Shown piece after piece: positions 1-28,100 of a stretch of DNA of 64,000 bases (position 1 is its first letter; each line of letters begins with the position of its first letter). The stretch is taken from NCBI RefSeq assembly GCF_026210795.1, contig NC_089434.1:2604001-2668000 (forward strand), read 5' to 3'. Under the pieces are notes generated by a model, which was not told the DNA's origin, did not search any database, and saw only the letters and a program-made list of their open reading frames with translations. The position numbers and the translations under genes are program-made. Source of the DNA: Rhizophagus irregularis. Taxonomy: Eukaryota.

Positions 1-3000
1 ACGTGAATGCTGCTCCTTTGCTGCGACCATCCGACCCGCAAAGCTCTCTTCTAAACAAGTCGTGTATTTATATAATGCTGTTCTTGTACCAAAACTTGAA
101 TATCGGATGCAAGTTACCCACTTGTCTGAATCTGAATGCCACCTAATAACGAGAAGTATACGATCCGTTGTAAAGCACAAAGCGAACTTTTCTCGTTTTT
201 TACCCAACCCCATTCTATTTTTGTCCCAAGCTTTGGGCTTGATTAATTTGTTCGCTCATCAACGACAATGTCATATTACTAATTTATTTTTAATGGCTAA
301 TTCTTCTTCTTCTTTTATTCAATCTCTTTTTATTTACAGATTGTGTTTAATTCAATATAATTTTTTGATTCCTATTTCTCCTTTATTAATTAAGGACTGG
401 TCTATATGGTCTTCTTTATTTTCTTTTAAGAAAGATTATATCGCATGCACTATTGCTCTTCTAACTTCTACTCCCTTTCGTTTGCTTCATACTCAACTTT
501 TGAAGCTTCCAAATTTATCCCTACCAGATGGATGCGTTCCTTTATTCGAATGCACGACGCCTAAAGCCTTTAAAGCTTATTTCCCCATTTTGCGAAACGA
601 CAACTGTTTTATTTATCTCAACTTGTTACTCCTCAAGGAACTCATTTAATTTCTTGGAAGGCTTATTATGACAATTTGGTTGGACGACGTGGCCCTGGCC
701 GTATCCCTTATTGGTACAAAGATATTCAACAAGTTACCACTATTTCTGACTCCAACAATCGTCTGCTGGATCATTTCACTATTACGCCCAAGATTGTCTC
801 TTCATCTTATGAATTGGCTCCCTGTTCATCCTCTCCTTCTACTACAAAAATTGGATTGTCACGTTGGACGATTATGGTTCTCCCATCTTTGGCAAACAAC
901 TCTTGGTCCAAACAAGTCGTGTACTTGTTCTATTGTTCACTGGATTTCTCCTGATTGCGAATCTTCGCCTGGCGATCTCATTAGACTCTCTCCTTGCCCT
1001 GGTTGCGCTGCTTCATACTCCTTTGCCTCCTTCCAAAAAACGGAATGCTGATTTAACCCTTTGTACGCCTACGGTCTCTCTACAACATTCGCTTATTTTG
1101 CCCACTACTAATGAACGAATTAGACGTACTACTTCTGAAGTGGCTTCACCTTTTACTTGGGCTGATATAGAAGATGGTGTCCGTCTTTATTATAGTAGAT
1201 TGGATTTTGATTCCGATTCTTCTTCTGCAGATACCGTTATAGTCTCTAATACTCCGCTCACAATTGAATCCTCGGCTGCTGCTGTCTTTGCAAATTCCCC
1301 GTTGGTCGTTTCCTCGATTCGTGCTATACCTTTTTCTTTTACGCTGATGGGTCTCTTATTAATTTAGGCACTCCCGATGTCTCTATGGGCTGGTCTTGGA
1401 TGCAAATAGTCCCTGATGCAGGTTTTCCTAACTCCATCGCCACTTATGCTCATGGCCTTATACGAGATAATCTCTCTTCTTCTCGAGCTGAGGCTGCTGC
1501 TATATATGCAGTTTTAACTATTTCTCCACGCGACTCAGAAGTTACTATTTATACTGACTCACAAACTGCCATTGATGGCCTTCGAAGTTGTTCTTCTTTT
1601 GTCTACTCAAACAGTCGTCTGTACTACAAAACTACAAATTTTGAGCTTTGGGCGATTATTGAGCGAACCATCCTTTCCAAAAATCTGACAGTTTTTCCTG
1701 TTAAAGTTAAAGCTCACTCCGGCAATTATTTAAACGATTTTGCTGATTCCTTGGCCAATACTGCCCATACCGCGTCATCTAGTATTCTGATCTCCGGAAT
1801 GGACCTGGCCTCTGCTCATGATTTTGTCTTAGTGTATGATAACGATGTTGTTTGTGAATCTAATCCGCGACACCTTCTCAAACTATATTATCAAACGCAG
1901 TTAATGCGTGATTTGTTAAATTTAACGCGTTTTCACTTCACTTCTTTATTGACATCTAATATAGATTATATTATTGACTGGAAATTACTTGGTTTACTTT
2001 AAATTTCAAGCCCTCTCATGATGCATCTTTTACTCCCGACCACGCATCAAGACACTTAACCTTTAAATTCAAACTTTTCTTGGATGATTTGCCTACTTTG
2101 GAAAAGCTGAAACGGACTCGACCAGATTTATACATGGACGAATTAACTTGCCGTTCTTGTATCGACCGCATGGAAGACCTGATGCACCTTTTTATGTGCA
2201 AAAATCGTCGTCTACCTATGCAACAGATTCTTCAATCTTATCAAAACCATTTGCTTTCTAAACTTCTGGAAGCTGGAAACATGGCTGATATTGACCTTAC
2301 TCCACTTATCGCTAAACTTACCTCTTTTTCATGCTGGTCCTTTTCTTCTACTAATTGGTCCTCTTATGCCCTTGTCCGTGGTTGTTTGCCTAAACTCTTT
2401 ATTGACTTATTTGTCGATTTATCCATCCCAAGGAACTCTGCGATTAAGGTTATCGCTGCTATTCACAATAATTTTGTTCAAAAATTCAGACGACGAATTT
2501 GGAATCCGCGTTCTTATGATAAAAGTAGATGGGAAAACGCGATGAATATTACCTACAAGATGAAAACTACTCTGATGCCTTCTAATTTGCCTTTGTCAAC
2601 GTACATACCTTACTCATCTTTACCACCTCTCGACCCTACACGATTCACGCGACTCCAGAACCGATTGGTTAGTTAACTCGATGAAATATGGTTTGCCTTG
2701 GTTTAATCACTTTTCGGGTTTTATGGGTCGTCTAACGGTGCTACTTAATAACAGCTTTTGCAGGATGGAGTGTCGATTTTTATAGTGGGCGCGCTATTCG
2801 TTATTTTGTTAGCATAGTTGCTTCTACTTTGTTTGAAATATATCAACGGGGAAGATCTGGGGAAATTTAGTGTAATGCGATTTTTCTTTTTTAGATTAAT
2901 TTTTTTACTTTATTTTTTCTTAGGAGACTATATAGCTTTGTTTTTAGTTAGTTTTATTTTTATATTTTTCTTTTTATTTTTGTAAATTGTAAAGTTCGAA

Positions 3001-3060
3001 TAAAATTAATAAAGATAAAGGCTACTATGCCATGTTTGCCTGGTTTTTGACTAGTAAAAA
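1..3060 (+). mobile_element. Non-LTR retrotransposon (LINE) copy 1, cut by window start; RT C-terminus, RNase H, C-terminal Cys/His knuckle, 3' UTR; frameshifted
   Basis: ORF pieces 62-649, 1385-2002 (RNase H motifs SSSRAEAAAI, IYTDSQ, KVKAHSG, NDFADSLA) and 2080-2676 (CRSCIDRMEDLMHLFMC); T-rich 3' UTR ending gactagt + aaaaa; closely similar to 3925-6979. Confidence 0.9.
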
Positions 3061-6000
3061 TACTCGCCCCATTACTCTACTTGAAGTGATTAGAATATCT
3101 CTTGTCAAACTTTTTTATAATCGCCTTTCTACTATTATGGCCTCACATAATGTCCTTGAAAGCGTAACAATTACGCCTGCTTCCTTCCCAGCTGGGTTCT
3201 TGCCGTGACCCTATTATTACTCTAGAATCTATTATCCATGACGCTGATATCAACAAAAATCCACTTTGGATTCTTTCCCAAGATATTTCTAAAGCTTTTG
3301 ACTCAGTTGATCTAACAATGTTACGTTTCGCTTTAGAACGTATACGTCTTCCAGCCTCCGCTGTTAAGTTTATCCTTTCCTTTTTCACGAAACGCACTAA
3401 TCGCGTTTTCACTGCTCATGGATCTACGCCTGCTTATAGAGTTCGCATTGGTATTGACCAAGGCGAAGTTATCTCTCCTCTTTTATGGGTTATTTATATT
3501 GATCCCTTACTTACTGTTTTGAAGAATGAAATGATGGACCCTTATGTTCTTTCTACACCGTCTTTAATTGATTCTCCAACTTCTTCTCCTGATTTGAAGA
3601 TTAATAATTTAGTTTTTATGGATGACTCTACTCTTATTTTCTCGTCAAAAGCTGGCATGGCATTTATGTTATCCATTACTGAAGAATTTTACCAAATCAA
3701 TAACACTTCTGCCAATCACAACAAATATGTGTTAATCACTAATTCGTTGCCTTTGACTTCGAATTCCACTTTACTCCCTATTACTTTTAACTTGGATTTA
3801 TCCTCTTTAAATAGTGTTCCTTCTATTACTATTACCCCAATTTCCATGACAACTTCTTTTCGTTTTTTAGGTGTTTGGTTTAACATTAAGAGCTCCCGTG
3901 ATTTTGTCAAAAAACAACTCAAACGCGAATGCTGCTCCTTTGCTGCGACCATCCGACCTGCAAAGCTCTCTCCTAAACAAGTCGTGTATTTACATAATGC
4001 TGTTCTTATACCAAAACTTGAATATCGAATGCAAGTTACCCACTTGTCCGAATCTGACTGCCACCTAATAACGAGAAGTATACGATCTGTTGTAAAGCAT
4101 AAAGCAAATTTTTCTCGTTTTTTACCCAATCCTATTTTATTTTTATCTCAAGCCTTGGGCTTGATTAATTTGTTTGCTCATCAACGACAATGTCATATTA
4201 CTAATTTATTTTTAATGGCTAATTCTTCTTCTTTTTTTATTCAATCTCTTTTTATTTATAGATTGTGTTTAATTCAATATAATTTTTTGATTCCTATTTC
4301 TCCTTTGTTAATTAAGGACTGGACTATATAGTCTTCTCTATTTTCCTTTAAGAAAGATTATATCGCATGCACTATTGCTCTTTTAACTTCTACTCCCTTT
4401 CGTTTGCTTCATACTCAACTTTCGAAGCTTCCGAATTTATCTCTGTTAGATGGATGTGTTCCTTTATTCGAATGCATGACGCCTAAAGCCTTTAAAGCTT
4501 ATTTCCCCATTTTGCGGAAACGACAACTGTTTTATTTATCTCAGCTTGTTACTCCTCAAGGAACTCATTTAATTTCTTGGAAGGCTTACTATGACAATTT
4601 GGTTGGACATCGTGACTCTGGCCATATCCCTTATTGGTACAAAGATATTCAACAAGTTACCACTATTTCTGACTCCAACAATCGTTTGCTGAATCATTTT
4701 AATATTACGCCTACGATTGTCTCTTCATCATATGATTTGGCTCCTTGTTTGTCCTCTCCTCCTACTACAAAAAATTGGATTGTCACGTTGGATGATTATG
4801 GTTCTCCTTTTTTTGGCAAACAACTTTTGGTTCAAGCAAGTCGTGGTACTTGTTCTATTGTTCACTGGATTTCTCCTGATTGTGAATCTTCGCCTGATGA
4901 TCTCATTAGACTTTCTCCTTGCCCTGGTTGCGCTGCTCATACTCCTTTGCCTCCTTCCAAAAAACGGAATGCTGATTTAACCCTTTGTACGCCTTTACTG
5001 GTATCTCTGACATTCGGCTTATTCTACGCTACCCAATGAACGGATTAGACGTACTACTTCTGAAGTGACGTCTCCCTTTACTTGGGCTGATATAAAAGAT
5101 GGTGTTCGTCTTTATTATAGTAGATTGGATTTTGATTCTGATTCTCCTTCTGCAGATACCGCTGTAGCTTCTGTTACTCCTGTTACTATTGAATCCTCGG
5201 CTGCTGCTGTTTTTGCAAATTCCCTGCTGGTCGTTTCCTCAGATTCGCGCTATATCTTTTTCACTGATGGGTCTCTTATTAATTTAGGCACTCCAGATGT
5301 TTCTATAGGCTGGTCTTGGATGCAAATAGTCCCTGATGCAAGTTTTCCTAACTCCATCGCCACTTATGCTCACGGCCTTATACGAGATAATCCTTCTTCT
5401 TCTCGAGCTGAAGCTGCTGCTATTTACGCAGTTTTAACTATTTCTCCACGCGACTCAGAAGTTACTATTTATACTGACTCGCAAACTGCCATTGATGGTC
5501 TTCGAAGTTGCTCTTCCTTTGTCTATTCAAATAGTCGTCTATACTTCAAAACTACAAATTTTGAGCTTTGGGCTATTATTGAGCGAACCATTCTCTCCAA
5601 GAATTTAACCGTCCTTCCCGTCAAAGTTAAAGCTCATTCTGGCAATTATTTAAACGATTTTGCTGATTCCTTGGCCAATACTGCTCATACTGCGTCATCC
5701 AGTATTTTGATTTCTGGAATGGACCTGGCCTCTGCTCATGATTTTGTCTTAACTTATGATAACGATGTTGTCTGTGAATCTAATCTGTGACACCTTCTCA
5801 AACAATATTATCAAACGCAGTTAATGCGTGATTTGTTAGACTTAACGCGATTTCATTTTATTTCTTTATTATCATCTAATGTAGATTATATTGTCGACTG
5901 GGATCTTACCTGGTTCACTTTAAATTTCAAGCCTTCTTATGATGCATCCTTTACTCCTGAGCACGCTTCAAGACACCTAACCTTTAAATTCAAACTTTTC

Positions 6001-6979
6001 TTGGATGATTTGCCTACATTGGAAAAGCTTAAACGAACTCGACCAGACTTATACATGGACGAATTAACTTGCCGTTCTTGTATCGACCGCATGGAAGACC
6101 TGATGCACCTTTTTATGTGCAAAAAACGTCGTCTGCCTATGCAACAAATTCTTCAATCTTATCAAAATCATTTGATTTCCAAAATCGTAGAAGCCAGAAA
6201 ATTGGCTGATATTGATCTTACTCCATTCATTGCTAAACTTGCTTTTCTTTCATGCTGGTCCTTTTCTTCTCACAAATTGGTCCTCCTATGCCCTGCTCCA
6301 ATTAAGGTTGTTTACCCAAACTCTTTATTGACTTATTTGACAACTTATCCATTCCAAGGATTTCTGCGATAAAGGTTATCGCTGCTATTCACAATAATTT
6401 TGTCCAAAAATTCAGATGCCGAATTTGGAATCCGCGTTCTTATGAAAAAAGTAGATGGGAAAACGCGATGAATATTACTTATAAGTTGAAAACTACTCCG
6501 AAGTCATCTAATTTGCCTTTGTCAACGTACATACCTTACTTATCTTTACCACCTCTGACCCTACACGATTCACGTGACTCCGGAACCGATTGGTTGAAGA
6601 ACTCGATGAAATATGGTTTGCCTTGGTTTAATCACTTTTCGGGTTTTATGGGTCGTCTAACGGTGCTACTTAATAACAGCTTTTGCAGAATGGAGTGTCA
6701 ATTTTTATAGTGGGCGCGCTATTCGTTATTTTGTTAGCATAGTTGCTTCTACTTTGGTTGGAATATATCGGGGGAAGATGCGGGAAATTTAGTGTAATGC
6801 GATTTTTCTTTTTCAGATTAATTTTTTTTACTTTATTTTTTCTTAGGAGACTATATAGCTTTGTTTTTAGTTAGTTTTATTTTTATATTTTTCTTTTTAT
6901 TTTTGTAAATTGTAAAAGTTCGAATAAATTTAATAAAGATAAAGGCTACTATGCCATGTTTGCCTGGTTTTTGACTAGT
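3056..6979 (+). mobile_element. LINE copy 2, 5'-truncated within the RT domain, in tandem with copy 1; degenerate
   Basis: RT motifs TRPITLLE (~3062), QDISKAFDSV, GIDQGEVISPLLW, FMDD; RNase H FFTDGS in ORF 5065-5790; zinc knuckle in 5824-6372; premature stops; same 3' UTR as copy 1. Confidence 0.92.
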
Positions 6980-7689: not shown

Positions 7690-9994
7690 ACGTTCGTATT
7701 CAGGGGCCCTCTTGAAGGATGAAATTGTGTCAAACGGTCTTGGCTGAGAGAGAGGTTAAAAAGCCAGAATTAATATATCCATTTGTACTGATTCATCAAC
7801 AATTGAAAACTCTATATCGTTGGTCTCACTTTAAACGGTTACTTCGACATTAGTCAAATTATCGACAATTCGATAACATACTGACCGATATATATGACAG
7901 TCAAATCTGGAAAACATTAAGAGAAACTGACGATGAAAATTCAGCAAAATTTTTCTGACCAGAAGTAGTCAATTCACATCTAGGACTAATGATAAACTTT
8001 GATTGGTTCCAGTTCTACGATAATACATTTTATAGTATCAGGGTAATTTACGCGGCTATCTGTAATTTACCCTGTGACATTTGGTTCAAATGCGAAAATT
8101 CGCTAGTTCTCAGTCTACTACCAGGACTGAACGAAGTAAGCTTGCACAAGATTAATCATTATATTGTGCCTATTGTCAATGAATTAGAGTTACTATGGAT
8201 TGAAATAACTTTAAATCAAACATTTGAGTGCCAAAATGGAAAAAATATTCATGCGACTTTAGTACTAATTTCGTGTGATATTCCTGCTGTTCAAAAAATA
8301 TGCAGGCATATTTTAGCTTTGGTTTCTTGCCATCGGTGTATGAAATGAGCAAATTATGAAAACAACTAACATAATTTTGCAAATATGGAGGATATGGAGA
8401 ATTGGTTCATTACTCGTGATTCGACTGAACATCATCGGAATGCTCTTGCATGGCGAAGTTGCAATTCCACCAATTCAAGAAAGAATTTCGTTAGTGAAAA
8501 AGGGGTTAGGTGGTCGGAGTTACTTTGATTGCCGTACTTTGACCTAATTCATTTTATTATTGTAGATCCAATGCACTGCTTATTCTTAGAAATTGCGAGA
8601 TGGATAATGAAGAGGATTTGGATCGATGAGGGTGTTTTAACCCTGAATGATCTAAAGAAGATTCAAGAAAAAATGAATTAATTCAAAATACTGGCTGATT
8701 TAAGACGAATTCCTGGAATATTGAGCGCAGAAAAGGGTTTTTGAACTATACAGCTGATTAGTGGCAAATTTTCTTTATAATCTATGCAACTACCTTATTG
8801 TGGAAACATTTACCGTCAAAAGATCAAAAAATCTTGACACATTTCGTTCGAGTTTATTCTATTTTAGTAAGCCGAATTTTAAAAATTGAATTAATGGAAG
8901 AAGCTCATGAGAGGCTAATTAAAATAATTAAGCTTATTGAAGTACACTATGGAAGAGTAAAAATTACACCTAATCTTCACCTTTCGCTCCATTTGTGCGA
9001 TTATTCAAATGATTTTGGTCCATTGTATGCATTTTGGTGTTTTTCATTTGAGCGTATGAATGGAATACTCGGTAAGATATTCTTTTTTTTACTTTTTTTA
9101 CTTTATTCGGATGTTTACATTGTTGATCTTATTTTTAATAATTTTTAAGACTCGTTGCCAACAAGTAATAAACAAATTGAACTGGAAATAATGCGTCAGA
9201 TAATGAATGATAATCAAATTGGAGATATCATTAGTTCTGACATTCAAACAAAAGGCTTAGAATTGCTTGAAGATCAACCCACAACTGGTTCAATATTGGC
9301 TGCAGACCAATTTTCTTTAGATGAACTAGAGCAGTTTTGGCTAAATGCTAAAAACATACAGGAATCAACTATTACTGGATGCGAGCCATTTTCTAAAGAA
9401 ATGCTGAAGCCTAATTCTGAAGCAATAATGACCGAATCAATGCTTGAACTGATGGTTGTTTTTTATAATGCTTCTTATATCAAAATGTACAAGTTTCGCA
9501 AATCAGCAGATGAAATTATCCAAGATTCTATAACAATTCGAGTAAAGATAAATCAATTTGGAAGATGCCGAATTGGTTCTGAAGTATTTGGCTTCGCAAT
9601 GTCAGTTCGACATACAAAAAGCTCGTGTGTTCTAGCCAAATTTATAACTAGTGATGGAGAAGTCGACAGTTATCCTGGACAAATTCAATACTTCTTCAAA
9701 CATACAGTCGACTTGCCAAATGGACAAATGGAACATAATTTGGCATATATTTGTTGGTATCGACCAGCTAGTATGAGTGAAAGTTGATATTATTTTCATA
9801 TTGATAATGAAGATGAGAGCTGTAACGTCGAGTTGTGGAAATCTGAATTTTATAATGAAAGTCGCGATTGTATTATTCCTGTACATAATATCCTTTGTCG
9901 ATTTATACCATCAAAATATCAAATTTCTACTCAGAGTAATGCTATTGAATATTTGGCGATTAATCCAATTAATCGCAAACTTCAAATTCGTTAA
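7690..9994 (+). pseudogene. CACTA/En-Spm (Tnp2-family-like) transposase pseudogene
   Basis: INFDWFQ..ICNLP, ISCDIPA, VDPMHCLFL, KITPNLHLSLHL..FGPLYAFWCFSFERMNGILG; intron ~9072-9149; several in-frame stops and frameshifts. Confidence 0.8.
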
Positions 9995-10055: not shown

Positions 10056-12898
10056 GGATAAATCTAATTGTAACAGCCTGTTACGCATCTTATTTGTAAC
10101 AACCCCCAATTTTATCCAATTAAAATTTAAGATCAGGCGTAATGTAAACAAAAACAAAAGATCAGTCATGTAAGCTAAGACAAAAAGAATTTTTCAAGAA
10201 ACTGCTTATAACTTAAAATTTTGTCTATGAAACTGTCTTAAATACATTAAGTAAAAGTTTTCCAAATTAAATTTTGCATATAAAAATTTTATTTGTGAAA
10301 CACATTAAATTTATTATTAAAAAAAAATAAAAAAAAGGATGTTACAAATAAGATATGTAACAGGCTGTTACAAATACATTTTTTCTTTTTATAATTACTT
10401 GACGAGAGACACGTTTATTAGACGAAATTTTATTTTATGAAAAGATTCTTTTGTAGTATTTTTATTATAATTACTTGTCAAAAAAGCAAGTCGAAATTCA
10501 TTTTACAATAAAAATTTTTGTTAATGATTATGCACTGAATATAAACAATGTAAACAAAGTATAAAATTTGAATTAAAAAATAATGTTTTTTACTATTTGG
10601 CAAAATTGTGTCAATTTATATGACCAATCGGCAAAATTTACTGAACGAGCCTTAAAGGAACAAGTTTTCGTATAACAATCGGTATAAGTCAATTTTTCGC
10701 AAAAGACTGAATGAGTTTTTGTTTAACAATCAGTATCAGTCGATTTGTAATTGATTTTACCGATTTTTGCCGATTGGTCAAAAAATGTGACGAATTACAT
10801 GACCAATCAGCAAAAATTATGCCAAAAACGTTTAACGGTCAAAAGTTTTGATTTTGACCAGTGTATTATTGTAAAAAAGATCTTTTTTCTTTCTATATGC
10901 TGATTCTTCATATAACAGATAATGAAAATACTTAAACTTCAATTTTTTCTAATCTGGTATTAATCTAGCAGCTAATCTTATAATTTGGTATGTAAAATTT
11001 TAGATAAATTTTGAATTTTTTCAATGTAATATGTATAAAAGTGGGTATAAATTCTGAAATTTTTTGGGGTAAATTTCTTTAAATCTGATCATTTTCCCCC
11101 ACATTATATATAATTGTCCGGAATTCTGTTACAATTATGTAAAGAATATAATAAATTGCTCAGCATCTAATGATCGTAGAAAGATGCAACACAGCTTGTT
11201 GGAATCATCTCATTGAGACAAATCGAATGGTAGTAGTTTCATCTTTCTATGATCACTAGCTGATGAGATATTTAGCGAAACATCAAAAATCGGCATTTTA
11301 ATATTTCTTGATTTATGTTTACTGCGCCACTAAACGTTTTGCTTAATTTCTTAGCATCTAGTAATTGTAAAAATATGATTAATAGCTCTTTAGAATCGCC
11401 TAATTGAGACAAATCGAATAGTAGTAAGATTATCTTTCTAAGTATGATAGATCGCAAGCTATACAAATAAATGTTAAAATGATAAATTATTAGATAATTC
11501 GCGGTTTATTGCACCTAGAAAGATGATCTTACCACCATTCGATTCGTCTCGATTAGGCGATTCTAAAGAGCTATTGATCATATTTTTACAATCACTAGAT
11601 GCTAAGAAATTAACCAAAACGTTTAGCGGCGCAGTAAACATAAATCAAGAAATATTAAAATGCCGATTTTTGATGTTTTGCTAAATATCTCATCAGCTAG
11701 TTATTGTAGAAAGATGAAACTACTACCATTCGATTTGTCTCAATGAGATGATTCCAACGAGCTGTGTTGCATCTTTCTACGATCATTGGATGCTGAGCAA
11801 TTTATTATATTTTTTACATAATTGTAACAGAATTCCGGACAATTATATATAATGTGGGGGGAAAATGATCAGATTTGAAGAAATTTACCCAAAAAATTTC
11901 AGAATTTATACCCACTTTTATACATATTACATTGAAAAAATTCAAAATTTATCTAAAATTTTACATACCAAATTATAAGATTAGCTGTGCTAGATTAATA
12001 CCAGATTAGAAAAAAATTGAAGTTTAAGTATTTTCATTATCTGTTATATGAAGAATCAGCATATAGAAAGAAAAAAGATCTTTTTTACAATAATACACTG
12101 GTCAAAATCAAAACTTTTGACCGTTAAAAGTTTTTGGCATAATTTTTGCTGATTGGTCATGTGATTCGTCACATTTTTTGACCAATGGCAAAAATCGGTA
12201 AAATCAATTACAAATCGACTGATACTGATTGTTAAACAAAAACTCATTCAGTCTTTTGGTGAAAAATTGACTTATACCGATTGTTATACGAAAACTTGTT
12301 CCTTTAAGGTCGTTCAGTAAATTTTGCCGATTGGTCATATAAATTGACACAATTTTGCCAAATAGTAAAAAACATTATTTTTTAATTCAAATTTTATACT
12401 TTGTTTACATTGTTTATATTCAGTGCATAATCATTAACAAAAATTTTTATTGTAAAATGAATTTCGACTTGTTTTTTGACAAGTAATTATAATAAAAATA
12501 CTACAAAAGAATCTTTTCATAAAATAAAATTTCGTCTAATAAACGTGTCTCTCGTCAAGTAATTATAAAAAGAAAAAATGTATTTGTAACAGCCTGTTAC
12601 ATATCTTATTTGTAACATCCTTTTTTTTATTTTTTTTTAATAATAAATTTAATGTGTTTTACAAATAAAATTTTTATATGCAAAATTTAATTTGGAAAAC
12701 TTTTACTTAATGTATTTAAGACAGTTTCATAGACAAAATTTTAAGTTATAAGCAGTTTCTTGAAAAATTCTTTTGTCTTAGTTACACGACTGATCTTTTG
12801 TTTTTGTTTACATTACGCCTGATCTTAAATTTTAATTGGATAAAATTGGGGTTGTTACAAATAAGACGCGTAACAGGCTGTTACAATTAGATTTATCC
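10056..12898. repeat. ~2.84 kb inverted repeat (palindrome), ~1.4 kb arms, short central spacer near 11460-11495
   Basis: 10056 ggataaatctaattgtaacagcctgttac... is the reverse complement of ...gtaacaggctgttacaattagatttatcc 12898; the match can be followed inward to about 11455/11500. Confidence 0.95.
10069..10372. mobile_element. ~300 bp MITE-like element inside the left palindrome arm (mirror copy 12585-12885)
   Basis: Terminal inverted repeats tgtaacagcctgttac(gc/at)atcttatttgtaaca at both ends. Confidence 0.65.
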
Positions 12899-21954: not shown

Positions 21955-22825
21955 AATGACACAGTTTTAACTGCTTTAGAAGACCTAGACTAGGAATTGG
22001 AATCGATTCCCATTATTAGAATCGTTATTAAAATCGATTAATCGCGATTAATCATTTCGCAAATACCGATTTTTTTTTATACTATTTATAATAGGTGTGT
22101 TTAAACACATATCACGTGATTACGAAAAATTACAGTGATCGATGAACAAAATTCCTTTTTTGGAAATTTGTACAACCTTGTGCGATAGCAACTTGAATTT
22201 TATTGGGAGATAAAATTTCCTTTTTAGGAAGTTTGTGTTCCGTCACGTGATTCGCGGGCGGAATTATGAATTTGCACTAGTCGAAAAAGGAACATTCGGC
22301 CTTAATACAATTCGGCCTATATTCGACTAAAATTAAAAAATTCGACTTCAATTAGTAATGATCTACGATTAGACATATATTCAACCTTGTTGAATAAACG
22401 TTACGCGTTACGCGTTACGCGTATTAAAAGTTTAAAAAAGGATCATCTTATTGCATTCTTTTTTAAACTTTTTTAATTTTCTTTCTTCCCCTTCCCCTTT
22501 CCCTTCGTTCCTCTTTCCTCCTTTTACTTCCCTTCGTCCCTTTACTTTTCTTATCCTTTTCCCCTTTCCCCTTTCCCTTCGTCCCTCAGTTTTTTTTTTC
22601 TTTTGTAGGTCAAGACGCCCATTTAGAAGGCCGGACTTCCTATTTCGAAGGTATATATATACCTTCAAATTTTATTTTGTTGTTTTTTAACGAAACGTTT
22701 TACTAACGTTTTCGTTTTTTGCTTTTGTAGATCAAGACGTGACTGAGATTCGTAAGTATTATTACGAATAGTGGATTTTTTTAATATTATAGAACGGTTT
22801 ACCAGCCGTTCTTGTTTTTTTATAG

Positions 22826-23405
22826 ATTTCGAGGGAAGTGAAAACGAAAGGGGAAGAGAAAACGAGAGGGGAAGCGAAAAAAACGAAAAAGGTGGGCGAA
22901 AACGGGAAGCGAAAAAATAAAAAGAAAGGGGAAGCGAAAAAACGAAAGGGGAAGAAAATGAAAGGGGAAGCTAAAAACAGAAAGGGAAGCTAAAAACGAA
23001 GGGAAGCTAAAAACGAAAGAAGCCAAAAACGAAAGGGAAAAATTTAAAAACGAGGGCTAAAAACGAAAGCTACAAAAACGAAAGGGAAGCTAAAAACGAA
23101 AGAAGCTAAAAACGAAAGGGGAAGCTAAAAACGAGGAAAGGGGTTAAAAACGAAAGGGAAGCTAAAAACGAAAAAAAAACGTGGGATAGGGTAAAACGAA
23201 AGGAAAAGGAAAATGGAAAAGAAGGGGGAAAACGAAGGGGAAAAGAAAGGGAAAACGAAAGGGGGAAAACAAAAGGGTAAAACGAAAGGGTAAAACGAAA
23301 GGGGAAAACGAAAGGGGGAAAACGAAAGGGGAAAACGAAAGGGTGAAACGAAAGGGGAAAACGAAAGAAAACGAAAACGAAGGGAAGGGTAAAACGAAAG
23401 GAGAT
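22826..23405 (+). repeat. Purine-rich degenerate tandem repeat (aaaacgaaaggg-like)
   Basis: Dozens of aaaacgaaag(g)n units. Confidence 0.9.
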
Positions 23406-23429
23406 GGATTTCCGAAAGAGTATTTTAAG

Positions 23430-25130
23430 ATTCGTAAGTATTGTATTACGAATCAAATATTTTTTTTTTTTTTGTTTTTTTTAAATATTATCGTTATGAA
23501 CGGTTTACTAACCGTTCTTTCTTTTTTTAGGTTCGGGTGGGCTTCCGAAGAACGGAAAACCCAAAGATTTGTAAGTACGAATCTTTAATTTATTTTTGTT
23601 ATTTTTTTATTATTACGAACGGTTTACTAACCGTTCTTGTATTTTTTTATAGGTTCGGGAGGCTTCGAAGAACGAAAACCCAAAAGATTCACGTACGAAT
23701 CTTATTTTTTTTATTTTTTTTTAATATTATGAACGGTTACTAATAACCGTTCTTTTTCTTTTTTTTTAGGATCGGATGGGCTTCCGTGTTCCGAAGAACG
23801 GGAAAATTCCAAGATTCGTAAGAATCTTGGATTTTTTTTTATTTTTTTTAAAAAAAATATTACGAACAGTTACTAATAACCGTTCTTTTATTTTTTATAG
23901 GTTCGGCCGTTCGGGTGGGCTTCCGTGTTCCGAAGAACGGGAAATCTCCAAAGATTCGTAAGAATCTTGGATTTTTTTTTTATTGTTTTTAAAAAAAATA
24001 TTACGAACGGTTACTAATAACCGTTCTTTCTTTTTTTAGGATCTGGTGGGCTTCCGAAGAAAGGAAAACCAAGAAACCAAGATTCGTAAGTAAGTACGAA
24101 TCTTGGTTTAATTTTTTTGTTTTTTTTTTTAATATATGAACGGTTTACTAATAACCGTTCTTTTCTTTTTTTAGGATCGGGTGGGCTTCCGAAGAACGAA
24201 AACCCAAAGATTCGTAAGTACGAATCTTTAATCTTTTTTATTTATTATTATTACGAATGGTTTACTAACCATTCTTTCTTTTTTTAGGTTCGGGTGGGCT
24301 TCCGAAGAACGAAAACCCAAAGATAAAGATTCGTAAGTACAGTACGAATCTTTATATATTTTTTATTTTTATTTTTTTTTATCATTTTGGAACGGTTTAC
24401 TAACCGTTCCTTTCTTTTTTTAGGTTTCGGGCGGGCTTTTGTGTGGGAAAAACCAAGATTCGTAAGTACGAATCTTGGTTTAATTTTTTTAATTTTTTTT
24501 TTTAATATTAATGAACGGTTACTAATAACCGTTCTTTCTTTTTTTAGGATCGGGTGGAGTGGGCTTCCGACCTTCGGAAAAGAAGAACCAAGATTCGTAA
24601 GTACGAATCTTGGTTTATTTTTTTAATTTTTTTTTTTAATATTACGAACGGTTACTAATAACCGTTCTTTCTTTTTTAGGATCGGGTGGGCTTCTGACCT
24701 TTGGGAAAGAGGAACCAAGATTCATAAGTACGAATCTTGGTTTATTTTTTTTTGATTTTTTTTTCAATATTAATGAACGGTTACTAATAACCGTTCTTTC
24801 TTTTTTAGGATCGGGTGGAGTGGGCTTCCGACCTTCGGGAAAAGAAGAACCAAGATTCGTAAGTACGAATCTTGGTTTATTTTTTTGATTTTTTTTTAAT
24901 ATTATTATGAACGGTTACTAATAACCGTTCTTTTCTTTTCTTTTTAGGTGCCGGGTGTCTCAGGTGTCTTCTGAAGAACGGAAAAAACCAAAGATTCGTA
25001 AGTAAGTACGAATCTTGGTTTTTTTTCTTATTTTTTTTTAATATTATGAACGGTTACTAACCGTTCTTCTCTTTTTTTTATAGGTTCGGGTGGATTGCTA
25101 AAGAACAATCAAAGATTCGTATATACGAAT
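23430..25130 (+). repeat. Tandem array of ~13 units (~115-145 bp), each with two palindromes, splice consensus sequences and a variable GC-richer segment
   Basis: Repeating (aa)gattc-GTAAGTAC-gaatc(tt), T-run, gaacgg-tt(t)ACTAA(TAA)-ccgttc, polypyrimidine-TAG, g(a/t)tcgggtgggcttccga... Confidence 0.92.
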
Positions 25131-28100
25131 ACATGAATCATGTAATTGTGGAATTGTATTTGAATTAGCAATATTTTTTGTAAATTAGATAGATGCAATA
25201 ATAATAATATAATTATAAAGTATTTAAGCATTAATAAATACATTTATTTAATAAATTTGATAAAAAAAATCAAAATAAATTCATAAATAAATGGGTTGTT
25301 ATTAGACCATAATTCGGCTTAAAGTTTTAAGGTCGAATATTGGTCAATTTAAACCTAAATAATGGTCGAATAATTAGTCCGAATTTGGGACGATTGGCAC
25401 CCTAAATGCGCCCGAAAATTCGACCTCAATTTGACACAGGTTAGACCATTATTCGACCTATATTCGACCTGGTCAAATTTAGGCCGAATTGTCCTTTTTC
25501 GACTAGTGTTGGCCAAAATTAACTATTATGAACAAATAATAATTTACGGTCAAATTAACGAAACTGCGCCACAATAAGTAGATTCGATTTTTATTCGAGA
25601 TTCGATTTAAAATCGATTCTTATCGATTTTCGATAGTTTCGATTTTAATCGAATCTTTTCCGATCCCTACACTAACGATAATTCGCACACTCAATTTCAA
25701 CAACAACAACAAAATTTTCTTGATGTAAATGGTTCATTTATCAATTTCAATAACTTTCGTGGGTAACACTTTCTGATTTAAGTAATATAACATACAGTAT
25801 ACTATATGCTATTCTACACATCTATTTTTCCTATCATTATACGATATTTTATTTTGATATTTTTATATAAGGAGAATTTTATAGGTTATTTATTAGCAAT
25901 ATTTATTATTAAGGTTAATTTTAATTTACGGTCAAATTAACGAAACTGCACCACAATAAGTAGATTCGATTTTTATTCGAGATTCGATTTAAAATCGATT
26001 CTTATCGATTTTCGATAGTTTCGATTTTAATCGAATCTTTTCCGATCCCTAACCTAGACAATACATTTTTCATTGAATATTCAAATTCTGAAGATTCTGA
26101 AGATAAAAAAGAATCTAATATTATCAATCAGTGGTCATGTCAGGGATCAGCAGGGATCGGTATGGGAAGTTGATTTAATTAAAGGTTCTACATTTATATT
26201 AATACATTTTTGTAAAACCGTTTTTTTGGTTAAATAAAAAATCTTACATAATAAAGTACACTAAAAATTTACATGTGACTTAGTGCTATTTCGAAGTTAT
26301 ATTATATTAAGTTTTATCATTATTGGATAAATATTGAGAAACTTTTATTAGGAGCGTATTTTTACGAAGCGAAAAATGGCCAAACTTCAATTGTATTTTA
26401 ACGTAAAAGTGTTGTTTCAACGTGGTCTGTAACACTATGTTATGCAAAACGTGAAGACCTTAAGTAGATATTTTTGTCTCCTTACGGACAAAAAAGAATG
26501 TCAGTAACTTGCATCTCTACAATTTATTTTGACTATTTTTTGTCAAAGGAAATCATTAATGTCAGAACAAAAATATGAAATTTCCACACCCTTGCCTTCT
26601 ATAGACTTTTTAGAAGAATACAACGATGAAATAAGCAGTAATGACGAGTTTGGACGTGAAATGTTAAATGAAACACTTGATAATACTAGTGATATACATT
26701 TTGAAGACCCTGAAAAAAAAAAGAAAAATGATTGTGAAACATTTGAACATGATGAAGTTATAGATAATTTAGAACACACTGAACTTACACCATATGTAGT
26801 TATCGATTTTATTAAGGGTGAAGTTCAACGATGTGGGGAATCAACGAAACTAAGACAATTACGAAATTTGTTTGGAACATGGCAAGTCGACAGAGATGCA
26901 ATCAATGAAGTTGATGGAGTTTTAATAAGATTAGGAGTATGTAATACTCATTTCCAATTTGATAATAAGTATCTACATCAATCACGAAATAAACAATTGA
27001 AAGATTTTAATCAAGGAATTATTCAATGGAGACGATGCATTTCTTGTAATAAATATATTACTTTTTTTTCTCGGGGCGCAGGATGCACATTACATTCTTG
27101 GCATTTAAATAAACAAAATATTCAAGTTCCATGTATTGGACAGTATACATGTGAGGCGCTACGAGATTGTCTACCAGTGTGTAAACGGGCTTTTGATGAC
27201 ATTAATCCGTGGTAAAAAGTGTGTGTTACTGGTATTACGAAAATTTGGGTAGTCATATTCATCATCATTCTGGGAGAGGAAAAAGTGGGATAACATGTAC
27301 TACATTACATGCTGATGATACAGCAAAAGGGTTAGAGTATTTGGGTAACTGGTTAATTAATATCGCACAAACAGGAAATGACAAAGAAAAAAATCAAAAA
27401 ATATTAACTAAAGCTTTCGAAGCCCTTCTTCCCTTTGCCGACCTAATGTTCAGTTCCAATTCTACTATTACTACTCTTATCTCAACTACCCTAAATGAAC
27501 CTCCCAGTTTGTTTATGATAAAGACTCTTTTTATTGAATTTTCTAAAAAACAAGAAATTGAAAAAAAATTAGAAATCAAAGAAAAAGAACTTGAAAAAAA
27601 AGAAATTGAAAAGAAAGAAATCGAAAAAAAATTAGAAATAGAAGATTTTGAGGCAGGTATACTCTCTTTTTCTTCATGAAAACTCACGGTAAAAAAAAGA
27701 TGCGAATGAATAATTTTTTGATTGATTGATACAGGAATTTGGTTGTACATTTGGACAAAAATTATGGAATTCTTGATCATATGTCAATTCAAGAGCATCT
27801 GCCTTAGAATCTCCGCAAACTATTCAAGAATATTACGATGGGTTTCCCAAGTTTTTAAATGATTTCTTCTTTGGAGTAATTGATGAATTATATCAAAAAA
27901 TGATAATAGTATGCAACTGGCAACGAAAAAAATGTCACAAGTTACCAAAAACTGTAATTTCTGAACTGATAATGAAAACTGTAACATTATTACGTCGATG
28001 TTATTAGGACTAGCTTTTCCTCATTTGAAAATTTGGTTATCTCAAGTTTTAGCTAGCCTTAGTCGTATGCCAAGATTACTGGGTTCTTTTCAACAGTTGT

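What the first reader, a model, noticed from the sequence alone, without database searches (positions are those of the whole stretch)
22609..25130. CACTA element carrying ~16 micro-exon cassettes with hairpin-enclosed 5' splice sites and branch points
Seen: inside a clean non-autonomous CACTA element (TIRs, TTG TSD) the + strand repeats a full spliceosomal unit. Each unit has a polypyrimidine tract + TAG, a short GC-richer exon (42 and 21 nt, one long purine-rich exon, then 13 exons of ~38-57 nt), a donor in the loop of a hairpin (gattc-GTAAGTAC-gaatc), a T-run, and a branch-point-like TACTAAC/TACTAAT inside a second hairpin (gaacgg...ccgttc). The stems co-vary: exons ending ccaagattc face gaatcttgg, aaagattc faces gaatcttt, ataaagattc faces gaatctttat, and at ~24255 gaaTgg pairs with ccAttc. 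The first cassette builds the same two hairpins from different sequence (atttcgaagGTATA/tataccttcaaat; aacgaaacgtt/aacgttttcgtt). Exon lengths are not frame-preserving and no long spliced ORF was found. Inference: a transposon-borne, heavily spliced non-coding transcript with structurally gated splice signals (silencing evasion, small-RNA source or intron propagation). The alternative is DNA palindromes made by template switching. I know of no description of this architecture.
Basis: partly seen in the sequence, partly recalled or inferred. Interest (0 to 1): 0.88.

Follow-up and report, generated by a model that had tools for sequence, protein, structure and literature searches.

The report
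Fungal transposon with fifteen hairpin introns
A gene-less jumping element in a root-symbiotic fungus holds fifteen short introns whose splice signals sit in predicted hairpins; RNA reads from this element family show several of the introns cut out, giving a likely non-coding RNA that may help the element pass as a gene and stay unsilenced.

Summary
Window 22275-25508 is a non-autonomous CACTA-type element of Rhizophagus irregularis or a very close relative. It has 32-nt TIRs and a TTG duplication, confirmed by an empty site. It carries 15 introns of 74-97 nt, each with one hairpin over the donor and one over the branch point. RNA reads of the family join exons at the predicted sites of introns 1, 2, 3, 7, 9 and 13, and at a donor 4 nt downstream in introns 8 and 13. 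The intron 1 and 2 joins are absent from two probable DNA sets. Corrections: the donor GT is usually in the stem, not the loop; exon 1 starts further upstream; and stem covariation fits DNA template switching, so it does not show selection on RNA structure. Exon lengths and 150 public gene models mix reading frames, so the RNA is likely non-coding and those 'proteins' are likely artefacts. Best reading: a tandemly amplified exon-intron unit makes a gene-like spliced RNA that likely helps the element avoid silencing. That function is untested; a neutral by-product is a close rival. No description was found in the searches run.

The parts
22272..22274 (.). Left copy of the 3-bp target-site duplication (TTG)
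   Evidence: empty site with one TTG in X15 (6 contigs) and X17 (1 contig)
22275..22306 (+). Left TIR, starts CACTAG
22275..22420 (.). Left subterminal region, 5 copies of a 7-nt motif (34 per kb against 0.45 per kb window-wide)
22400..22429 (+). Candidate promoter: three 7-nt ACGCG-containing repeats and a TATA-like box (inferred)
   Evidence: Sequence; X22 depth is 0 at 22397-22450 and rises from about 22480
22480..22650 (+). Exon 1; start approximate, includes the pyrimidine-rich tract
   Evidence: depth; no sharp start was listed
22651..22730 (+). Intron 1; donor hairpin with different arms from the other units
   Evidence: Junction in 26 reads (X22) and 1 (X24), 0 contigs in X15 and X17
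22731..22751 (+). Exon 2 (21 nt)
22752..22825 (+). Intron 2
   Evidence: Junction in 33 reads (X22) and 3 (X24), 0 contigs in X15 and X17
22826..23433 (+). Exon 3 (608 nt), purine-rich 13-nt tandem repeat
23434..23530 (+). Intron 3
   Evidence: loose ends at 23531
23531..25083 (+). Tandem array, period about 135 nt: exons 4-15 (38-57 nt) and introns 4-15 (23571-23652, 23693-23769, 23818-23900, 23958-24039, 24086-24174, 24214-24287, 24333-24423, 24462-24547, 24597-24679, 24724-24808, 24859-24947, 24998-25083)
   Evidence: joints 23957/24040, 24089/24175, 24213/24288, 24723/24809 and 24727/24809
25084..25290 (+). Last exon; 3' end approximate; AATAAA motifs at about 25230-25280 (poly(A) site inferred)
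   Evidence: Depth falls after about 25174 and is 0 beyond 25317 in 3 of 4 runs
25290..25508 (.). Right subterminal region, 8 motif copies
25477..25508 (-). Right TIR
25509..25511 (.). Right copy of the target-site duplication (TTG)

Best explanation
This is a non-autonomous CACTA-type DNA transposon whose interior is a tandem array of exon-plus-intron units that RNA reads of the family show are spliced, giving a likely non-coding RNA that likely helps the element stay transcribed and escape silencing by looking like an intron-rich gene. Steps: (1) it inserted into another repeat and duplicated TTG (shown by the empty site); it would borrow a CACTA transposase (inferred; partner not identified). 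(2) One exon-intron unit carrying two short palindromes was amplified head to tail and diverged (array shown; slippage or unequal exchange inferred). (3) Template switching during replication likely keeps the two stems perfect (inferred from two-sided changes, a loop inversion and the lack of G-U bias). (4) Transcription likely starts inside the element near 22480-22560 (depth only). The introns are removed at GT..AG sites, at the first GT or at the GT 4 nt downstream (shown for the family, not for this copy). (5) The product is a repetitive RNA of about 1.5 kb with no kept frame. (6) Dense splicing likely shields active copies from small-RNA and methylation silencing (inferred by analogy, untested); inserted copies that are silenced decay by CpG deamination.
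For: Splicing, reads in X21/X22/X23/X24: intron 7 18/19/24/16; intron 9 27/32/21/9; intron 8 at the +4 donor 11/17/20/12; intron 13 20/21/16/1 and at +4 18/1/20/6; intron 3 as loose ends 48/36/60. Introns 1 and 2: 26 and 33 reads in X22, 1 and 3 in X24, none in X15 or X17 contigs. These skips are intron-sized (74-85 nt), unlike the whole-unit skips of 118 and 634 nt. Empty site. Non-coding: 23 exons fall 6/9/8 into length classes mod 3; 94 of 150 gene models use two or three frames of the repeat; no Pfam hit for P0001 or P0004. Signals outlast exon cores: donor hexamer pairwise identity 0.80 against 0.60 for exon cores (0.47 with gaps); 10 of 12 lengthened donor loops keep GTAAGT on the 5' side. 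Analogy: introns are a barrier to nuclear RNAi in C. elegans (PMC5554785, abstract); R. irregularis TEs are CG-methylated and expressed ones less so (PMC8647823, passages).
Against: No test of function: no small-RNA, methylation or per-copy data. Inserted copies lose donors like any CpG: G+1 to A in 3 of 28 units, equal to C-1 to T in 3 of 28, and G>A at 22752 in about half of the X17 depth though not in X15. A cut-and-paste passenger needs no RNA to move. Only 120 of 1926 laid reads in X21 are 99% or more alike, so this copy is not shown to be expressed. Only 15 of 193 joints were displayed, so introns 4, 5, 6, 11, 12, 14 and 15 have no exact displayed joint and intron 10 only an offset one. 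X21 and X23 are one sample. X15 and X17 are not on record as DNA. The units were picked by pattern, which inflates signal conservation. Many intron-covering reads remain in the poly(A) runs. In Cryptococcus stalled spliceosomes trigger RNAi instead (PMC6643885, passage).
Confidence: 0.45

Rival explanations
1. Neutral by-product. A palindrome-rich unit that happened to contain an intron was amplified as an internal tandem repeat. Template switching keeps the stems, and the spliceosome uses the inherited signals with no benefit to element or host.
For: Loop inversion in L002 and a loop-less unit in L001. G-U and A-C mismatches are balanced. Donors decay at the CpG rate. Template switching makes multibase compensatory changes and perfect stems (PMC8794818, abstract). 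Unchecked scan notes report other tandem exon-intron arrays in this genome.
Against: Both palindromes centre on splice signals, also in intron 1 with different donor arms. Exon cores have diverged more than donors. Loop expansions spare the donor. The array recurs with at least four different 5' and four different 3' tags in gene models.
Confidence: 0.33
2. Slow-splicing trigger. The hairpins delay spliceosome assembly, and the stalled RNA feeds RdRP and Dicer, making small RNAs that restrain the family or its neighbours.
For: Predicted donor hairpins (mean -13.6 kcal/mol) exceed the predicted U1 duplex (at best -7.6). Intron-covering reads are abundant in the poly(A) runs; in X22 intron 2 has depth 27-41 beside 33 junction reads. 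Stalled spliceosomes trigger siRNA in Cryptococcus (PMC6643885, passage). Splice-site regions of yeast introns are depleted of stems (PMC12350175, passage).
Against: Buried donors are spliced. Intron depth is near zero at several introns in X24. No host-gene control; intron reads may come from decayed copies, antisense RNA or DNA. The same yeast paper found no correlation between such stems and the spliced fraction. No small-RNA run was laid.
Confidence: 0.13
3. It encodes variable basic peptides by alternative splicing.
For: 150 public R. irregularis models; a 275-codon open stretch in the joined exons; some models fuse the array to other ORFs (P0036, P0070, P0016).
Against: Exon lengths are not multiples of 3; frames switch within and between models; no Pfam match; all hits are named from one species.
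Confidence: 0.05
4. It is a source of mobile introns (introner-like).
For: Near-identical structured introns recall introner-like elements and sister stwintrons (PMC8469720, abstract).
Against: The introns occur only in tandem with their own exons in the window and in 3 of 3 metagenome loci. The hairpins are local and the donor stem needs exon sequence. No genome was available to search for solo copies.
Confidence: 0.04

Closest known systems
Non-autonomous CACTA (CMC-EnSpm) elements; the superfamily, including Plavaka, is reported in R. irregularis (PMC11075540 and PMC8647823, passages seen)
   Same: CACTA-starting TIRs, 3-bp TSD, subterminal motif repeats, no transposase; internal tandem repeats are known in plant CACTAs (recalled, no call)
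   Different: The internal repeat unit is a working exon plus intron. Neither paper's main text contains 'intron', 'splic' or 'hairpin'.
Sister stwintrons and introner-like elements of Hypoxylaceae (PMC8469720, abstract seen; PMC9024468 and PMC12403724, listing only)
   Same: Families of near-identical fungal U2 introns with internal symmetry
   Different: Those have 45-55-nt terminal inverted repeats across the intron, insert singly in genes and lack TSDs. Here two local hairpins cover donor and branch point, in tandem inside a DNA transposon.
Micro-exon arrays: Schistosoma MEGs and Tuber 3-bp mini-exons (recalled, or named only in scan notes); 3-nt exon kinase arrays of this genome (unchecked scan notes)
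   Same: Tandem duplication of exon-intron units into long arrays
   Different: Those keep frame and feed a protein. Here exons are 31-57 nt, frames are mixed, and the array rides in a transposon.
Template-switch-maintained hairpins (PMC8794818, abstract and start of the introduction seen)
   Same: Perfect stems and multibase compensatory changes
   Different: Described for structured RNA genes, not for splice-signal hairpins in a transposon array
Introns as a shield against silencing: EMB-4/Aquarius in C. elegans (PMC5554785, abstract); HUSH and intronless elements (PMC8770142, listing only); PATCs (PMC4947018, listing only)
   Same: Intron-rich transcripts resist silencing, the function proposed here
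   Different: Those are host rules in animals. No such rule is shown for Glomeromycotina, and no element is reported in my searches to amplify introns for this purpose.

Membership tests
CACTA (CMC-EnSpm), non-autonomous | TIRs starting CACTA/CACTG | tested here: met
   32 nt, 91%, CACTAG...CTAGTG
CACTA (CMC-EnSpm), non-autonomous | 2-3-bp target-site duplication made on insertion | tested here: met
   TTG on both sides; empty site with one TTG in X15 and X17
CACTA (CMC-EnSpm), non-autonomous | Subterminal repeated motifs | tested here: met
   5 and 8 copies at the ends, 1 in the 2.9-kb interior
CACTA (CMC-EnSpm), autonomous | Encodes a tnp2/TnpD transposase | tested here: not met
   No such ORF in the element; P0001 and P0004 have no Pfam hit
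CACTA (CMC-EnSpm), non-autonomous | Moved by a CACTA transposase with matching ends | not testable with these tools
   No genome held; a broken tnp2-like gene lies at 7959-9145 (below Pfam cut-offs), link not shown
U2 spliceosomal introns | GT...AG ends, branch consensus, pyrimidine tract | tested here: met
   14 of 15 start GT (one AT; intron 5 weak), 15 of 15 end TAG
U2 spliceosomal introns | Removed from RNA, present in DNA | tested here: met
   Joins for introns 1, 2, 3, 7, 8 (+4), 9 and 13 in family reads; DNA control only for introns 1 and 2
U2 spliceosomal introns | Lariat at the predicted branch A | not testable with these tools
   No lariat data
Introners / sister stwintrons | Single introns inserted at new positions in host genes | tested here: inconclusive
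   Only tandem copies in the window and L001-L003; no whole genome
Introners / sister stwintrons | Long inverted repeats joining the two intron ends | tested here: not met
   Folds give two local hairpins
Micro-exon genes (MEG-like, 3-nt exon arrays) | Frame-preserving exons encoding one protein | tested here: not met
   Lengths mod 3 are 6/9/8; 94 of 150 models mix frames
Mirtrons | One hairpin from the 5' to the 3' splice site | tested here: not met
Known Rfam families | Match at gathering score | tested here: not met
   12 weak matches, all far below gathering

The most novel reading that the evidence does not exclude
A family of non-autonomous DNA transposons has evolved a gene-mimic module: an expandable array of introns whose donor and branch point are each held in a self-repairing hairpin. 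It is kept because dense, structure-tuned splicing marks the element's chromatin as 'gene' and blocks methylation and RNAi. The module is shared among subfamilies with different ends and seeds exons into neighbouring genes.
Probability: 0.3. Interest if true: 0.88.

Novelty: new variant of a known kind. Interest (0 to 1): 0.7.

Why it matters
(1) A DNA-transposon passenger has no need of RNA, yet this family makes a 15-intron transcript. Many copies in graded states of decay offer a natural test of whether introns shield transposons from silencing in a fungus with CG methylation and small RNAs. (2) Donors predicted to be buried in strong hairpins are used, although splice-site regions of yeast introns are depleted of stems (PMC12350175, passage); the array is a ready model for how the spliceosome reads structured sites. 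(3) At least 150 protein clusters named from R. irregularis are likely mis-annotations of this family, which inflates orphan-gene counts. Some models splice the array into other ORFs, such as a HARBI1-like nuclease (P0036).

Tried and rejected
No whole genome is held, so copy number, solo introns and the autonomous partner were not searched. No RNA holder was listed in the index; this blank is not used as evidence, and the raw-read runs came as same-species additions. Collection scans: viral contigs 0, prokaryote genomes 0, metagenomes 3 loci. Rfam gave nothing at gathering score. Circular RNA rejected as unsupported: the 'goes back' joints 24858 to 24680 and 24215 to 24177 link near-identical exon types (exon 14 is nearly exon 12; exons 9 and 10 share most letters) and fit ordinary splicing in sister copies. 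A special fold of the spliced RNA rejected: z -0.7 to +2.1 for 12 adjacent exon pairs. Specific pairing of the 5' pyrimidine tract with exon 3 rejected: -114.0 against shuffles -108.1 +/- 4.4, best -114.6. G-U bias as a sign of RNA selection not found. Linking the tnp2-like relic to the element by shared ends not accepted: the CACTGGTC motifs at 10863 and 12096 are an outward-facing pair with identical flanks. The bacterial promoter scan is uninformative for a fungus. Scan look-ups by sequence, by words and near the place found no report of this array. Regex rows that were not true donor hairpins were dropped: 28 units kept of 46 raw matches.

Full report
ORGANISM AND SETTING. No genome is held for the window. 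The only homologue of the in-window reading at 23190-23585 is a Rhizophagus irregularis model, and all 108 and 42 relatives are named from that species. The window is R. irregularis or a very close relative.

THE ELEMENT. It spans 22275-25508 (3,234 bp). The TIRs are 32 nt, 91% complementary and start CACTAG, with TTG on both sides. A 7-nt motif occurs 5 and 8 times in the subterminal regions and once in the interior. Contigs of two other data sets run from 22274 straight into the sequence at 25512 (6 contigs in X15, 1 in X17). That is the empty site with one TTG, so the duplication was made on insertion. No transposase frame lies inside.

THE ARRAY. There are 15 introns of 74-97 nt and 16 exons; 23494-25091 is a tandem repeat of period about 135. 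Every intron ends in a T-rich tract and TAG, with a branch-like site 20-27 nt upstream. Donor and branch windows fold at a mean of -13.6 and -10.6 kcal/mol. For 45 intron-like sites picked by pattern elsewhere in the window the means are -2.6 and -1.6; 4 and 1 of them reach the weakest element value. The donor GT is predicted paired in 11 of 15 introns. The branch A is paired in the 7 TACTAAC-type introns and looped in the 8 TACTAAT-type ones. Three soil-metagenome contigs hold the same units with other flanks.

SPLICING IS REAL IN THE FAMILY. Four raw-read runs with the same species label were laid on 23400-25520 (at most 3 samples, 2 studies; X21 and X23 are one sample; about a quarter of each run was read). 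Reads in X21/X22/X23/X24: 23957/24040 18/19/24/16; 24213/24288 27/32/21/9; 24089/24175 11/17/20/12; 24727/24809 18/1/20/6; 24723/24809 20/21/16/1. The window has A at 24724, but 98 of 128 X21 reads there have G. Loose ends at 23531 match the end of exon 3 in 48/36/60 reads of X21-X23. Only 15 of 193 joints were displayed. On 22100-22880 the intron 1 join has 26 reads in X22 and 1 in X24, and the intron 2 join 33 and 3; both are reported as joints with a few exon letters between. Neither is in the X15 or X17 contigs. These two runs are not on record as DNA; I treat them as DNA because they cover flanks and introns and hold the empty site. The libraries look unstranded, so the + direction rests on GT..AG orientation. 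Most reads come from sister copies (120 of 1926 are 99% or more alike in X21), so this copy is not shown to be expressed. X22 depth is 0 at 22397-22450, rises from about 22480 and is unbroken across 22608, so exon 1 is longer than 42 nt and transcription likely starts inside the element. Intron-covering reads are many in X21-X23 and few at several introns in X24; there is no host-gene control.

TWO DONORS. The consensus holds a second GT 4 nt downstream, in the hairpin loop. Reads use it in introns 8 and 13, and its peptide signatures occur in 47 of 150 models in each of two frames. Models are biased towards open frames.

NOT A PROTEIN GENE. Exon lengths mod 3 are 6/9/8 over 23 units. Of 150 models, 94 use two or three frames of the repeat, 53 one, and 3 none of my tags (80 of 108). 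P0001 and P0004 have no Pfam hit. The joined exons do have a 275-codon stop-free stretch, 170 aa from ATG, probably because the purine-rich exon is poor in T. Translation is not excluded. At least four 5' and four 3' tags recur among the models, pointing to several subfamilies or insertion contexts.

WHAT THE HAIRPINS SHOW. Covariation is real: 94.6% of cells paired, 6 of 16 pairs with two-sided changes, 0 of 500 shuffles as high (this control ignores relatedness). Outer donor pairs match 0.70 against 0.53 for shuffled arms. It does not show selection on RNA. Branch-stem mismatches are 3 G-U and 4 A-C in 232 cells. The 24255 change is C>T plus G>A at CpGs, and C>T and G>A make 231 of 460 variant places in X21. 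One L002 unit has its loop inverted, and one L001 unit has lost it. Template switching gives such patterns (PMC8794818, abstract and start of the introduction). For selection on splicing: both palindromes centre on splice signals; donors are more alike than exon cores (0.80 against 0.60, pattern-picked units); 10 of 12 lengthened loops keep GTAAGT 5'. Against: G+1 is lost in 3 of 28 units, as often as its CpG partner.

MECHANISM. Shown: insertion with TSD, the array, splicing of family RNA, mixed frames, CpG-type decay of copies. Inferred: trans-mobilisation, tandem amplification, template-switch upkeep, an internal promoter, and the purpose. I commit to gene mimicry against silencing (0.45). 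It rests on analogy with intron barriers to nuclear RNAi (PMC5554785, abstract) and on methylated TEs and TE-derived small RNAs in this fungus (PMC8647823, passages). Rivals: neutral by-product 0.33, stalled-splicing RNAi trigger 0.13 (PMC6643885, passage), peptides 0.05, intron source 0.04. The anatomy and the splicing are far more certain (about 0.9) than the purpose.

LITERATURE. Searches for this layout listed no paper describing it; the library covers Creative Commons PubMed Central papers and bioRxiv only. Two R. irregularis TE papers have no main-text hit for intron, splic or hairpin (passages), and the assembly preprint treats introns only for gene models (passages). I opened no supplements; their TE libraries may already hold this family as an unnamed or CMC consensus. 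Closest structured-intron families are the Hypoxylaceae stwintrons (PMC8469720, abstract). Unchecked scan notes report coding arrays of 3-nt exons in the same genome; they suggest the genome readily amplifies exon-intron units, which helps the neutral rival, and I did not test them.

VERDICT. Observation partly confirmed with corrections; the splicing prediction is borne out for the family; structural gating is not shown. New variant of a known kind. Interest 0.70.

Noticed in passing
window 7959-9787: Broken CACTA transposase-like gene: Transposase_21 E 2.7e-05 and DUF4218 E 6.8e-04, both below the curated cut-offs. It has an ordinary-looking intron near 9073-9148 with no evident hairpin (read by eye).
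   Followed up: partly
window 10863 and 12096: Two identical 32-nt CACTGGTC-starting motifs face outward with the same flank; the first 13 nt match the end of the array-bearing element in L002. Probably parts of a larger inverted repeat.
   Followed up: partly
window 22100-22274 and 25509 onward: The element sits inside another high-copy repeat: the empty-site contig in X17 has depth 769 against 43 for a contig over exon 1 (summed depth is no true copy number).
   Followed up: partly
window 23832: In X24, 55 reads carry 30 T before this place: possible oligo-dT priming on minus-strand RNA or on an A-run, hinting at antisense transcripts.
   Followed up: no
L003 1455-1640 and the last unit of L001: Other donor-adjacent hairpins with different sequence follow the array, suggesting further intron types of the same design.
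   Followed up: no
P0070, P0071, P0074, P0079, P0094; P0036; P0016; P0084; P0086: Public gene models splice array exons into unrelated ORFs, including a DDE_Tnp_4 nuclease: possible exonisation or annotation error.
   Followed up: partly
window 574-6710: Two tandem copies of a LINE-like element with reverse transcriptase-like and RNase H-like frames (read by eye; not scanned).
   Followed up: no
window 25519-25670 and 25925-26052: A direct duplication of about 130 nt in the right flank (seen).
   Followed up: no
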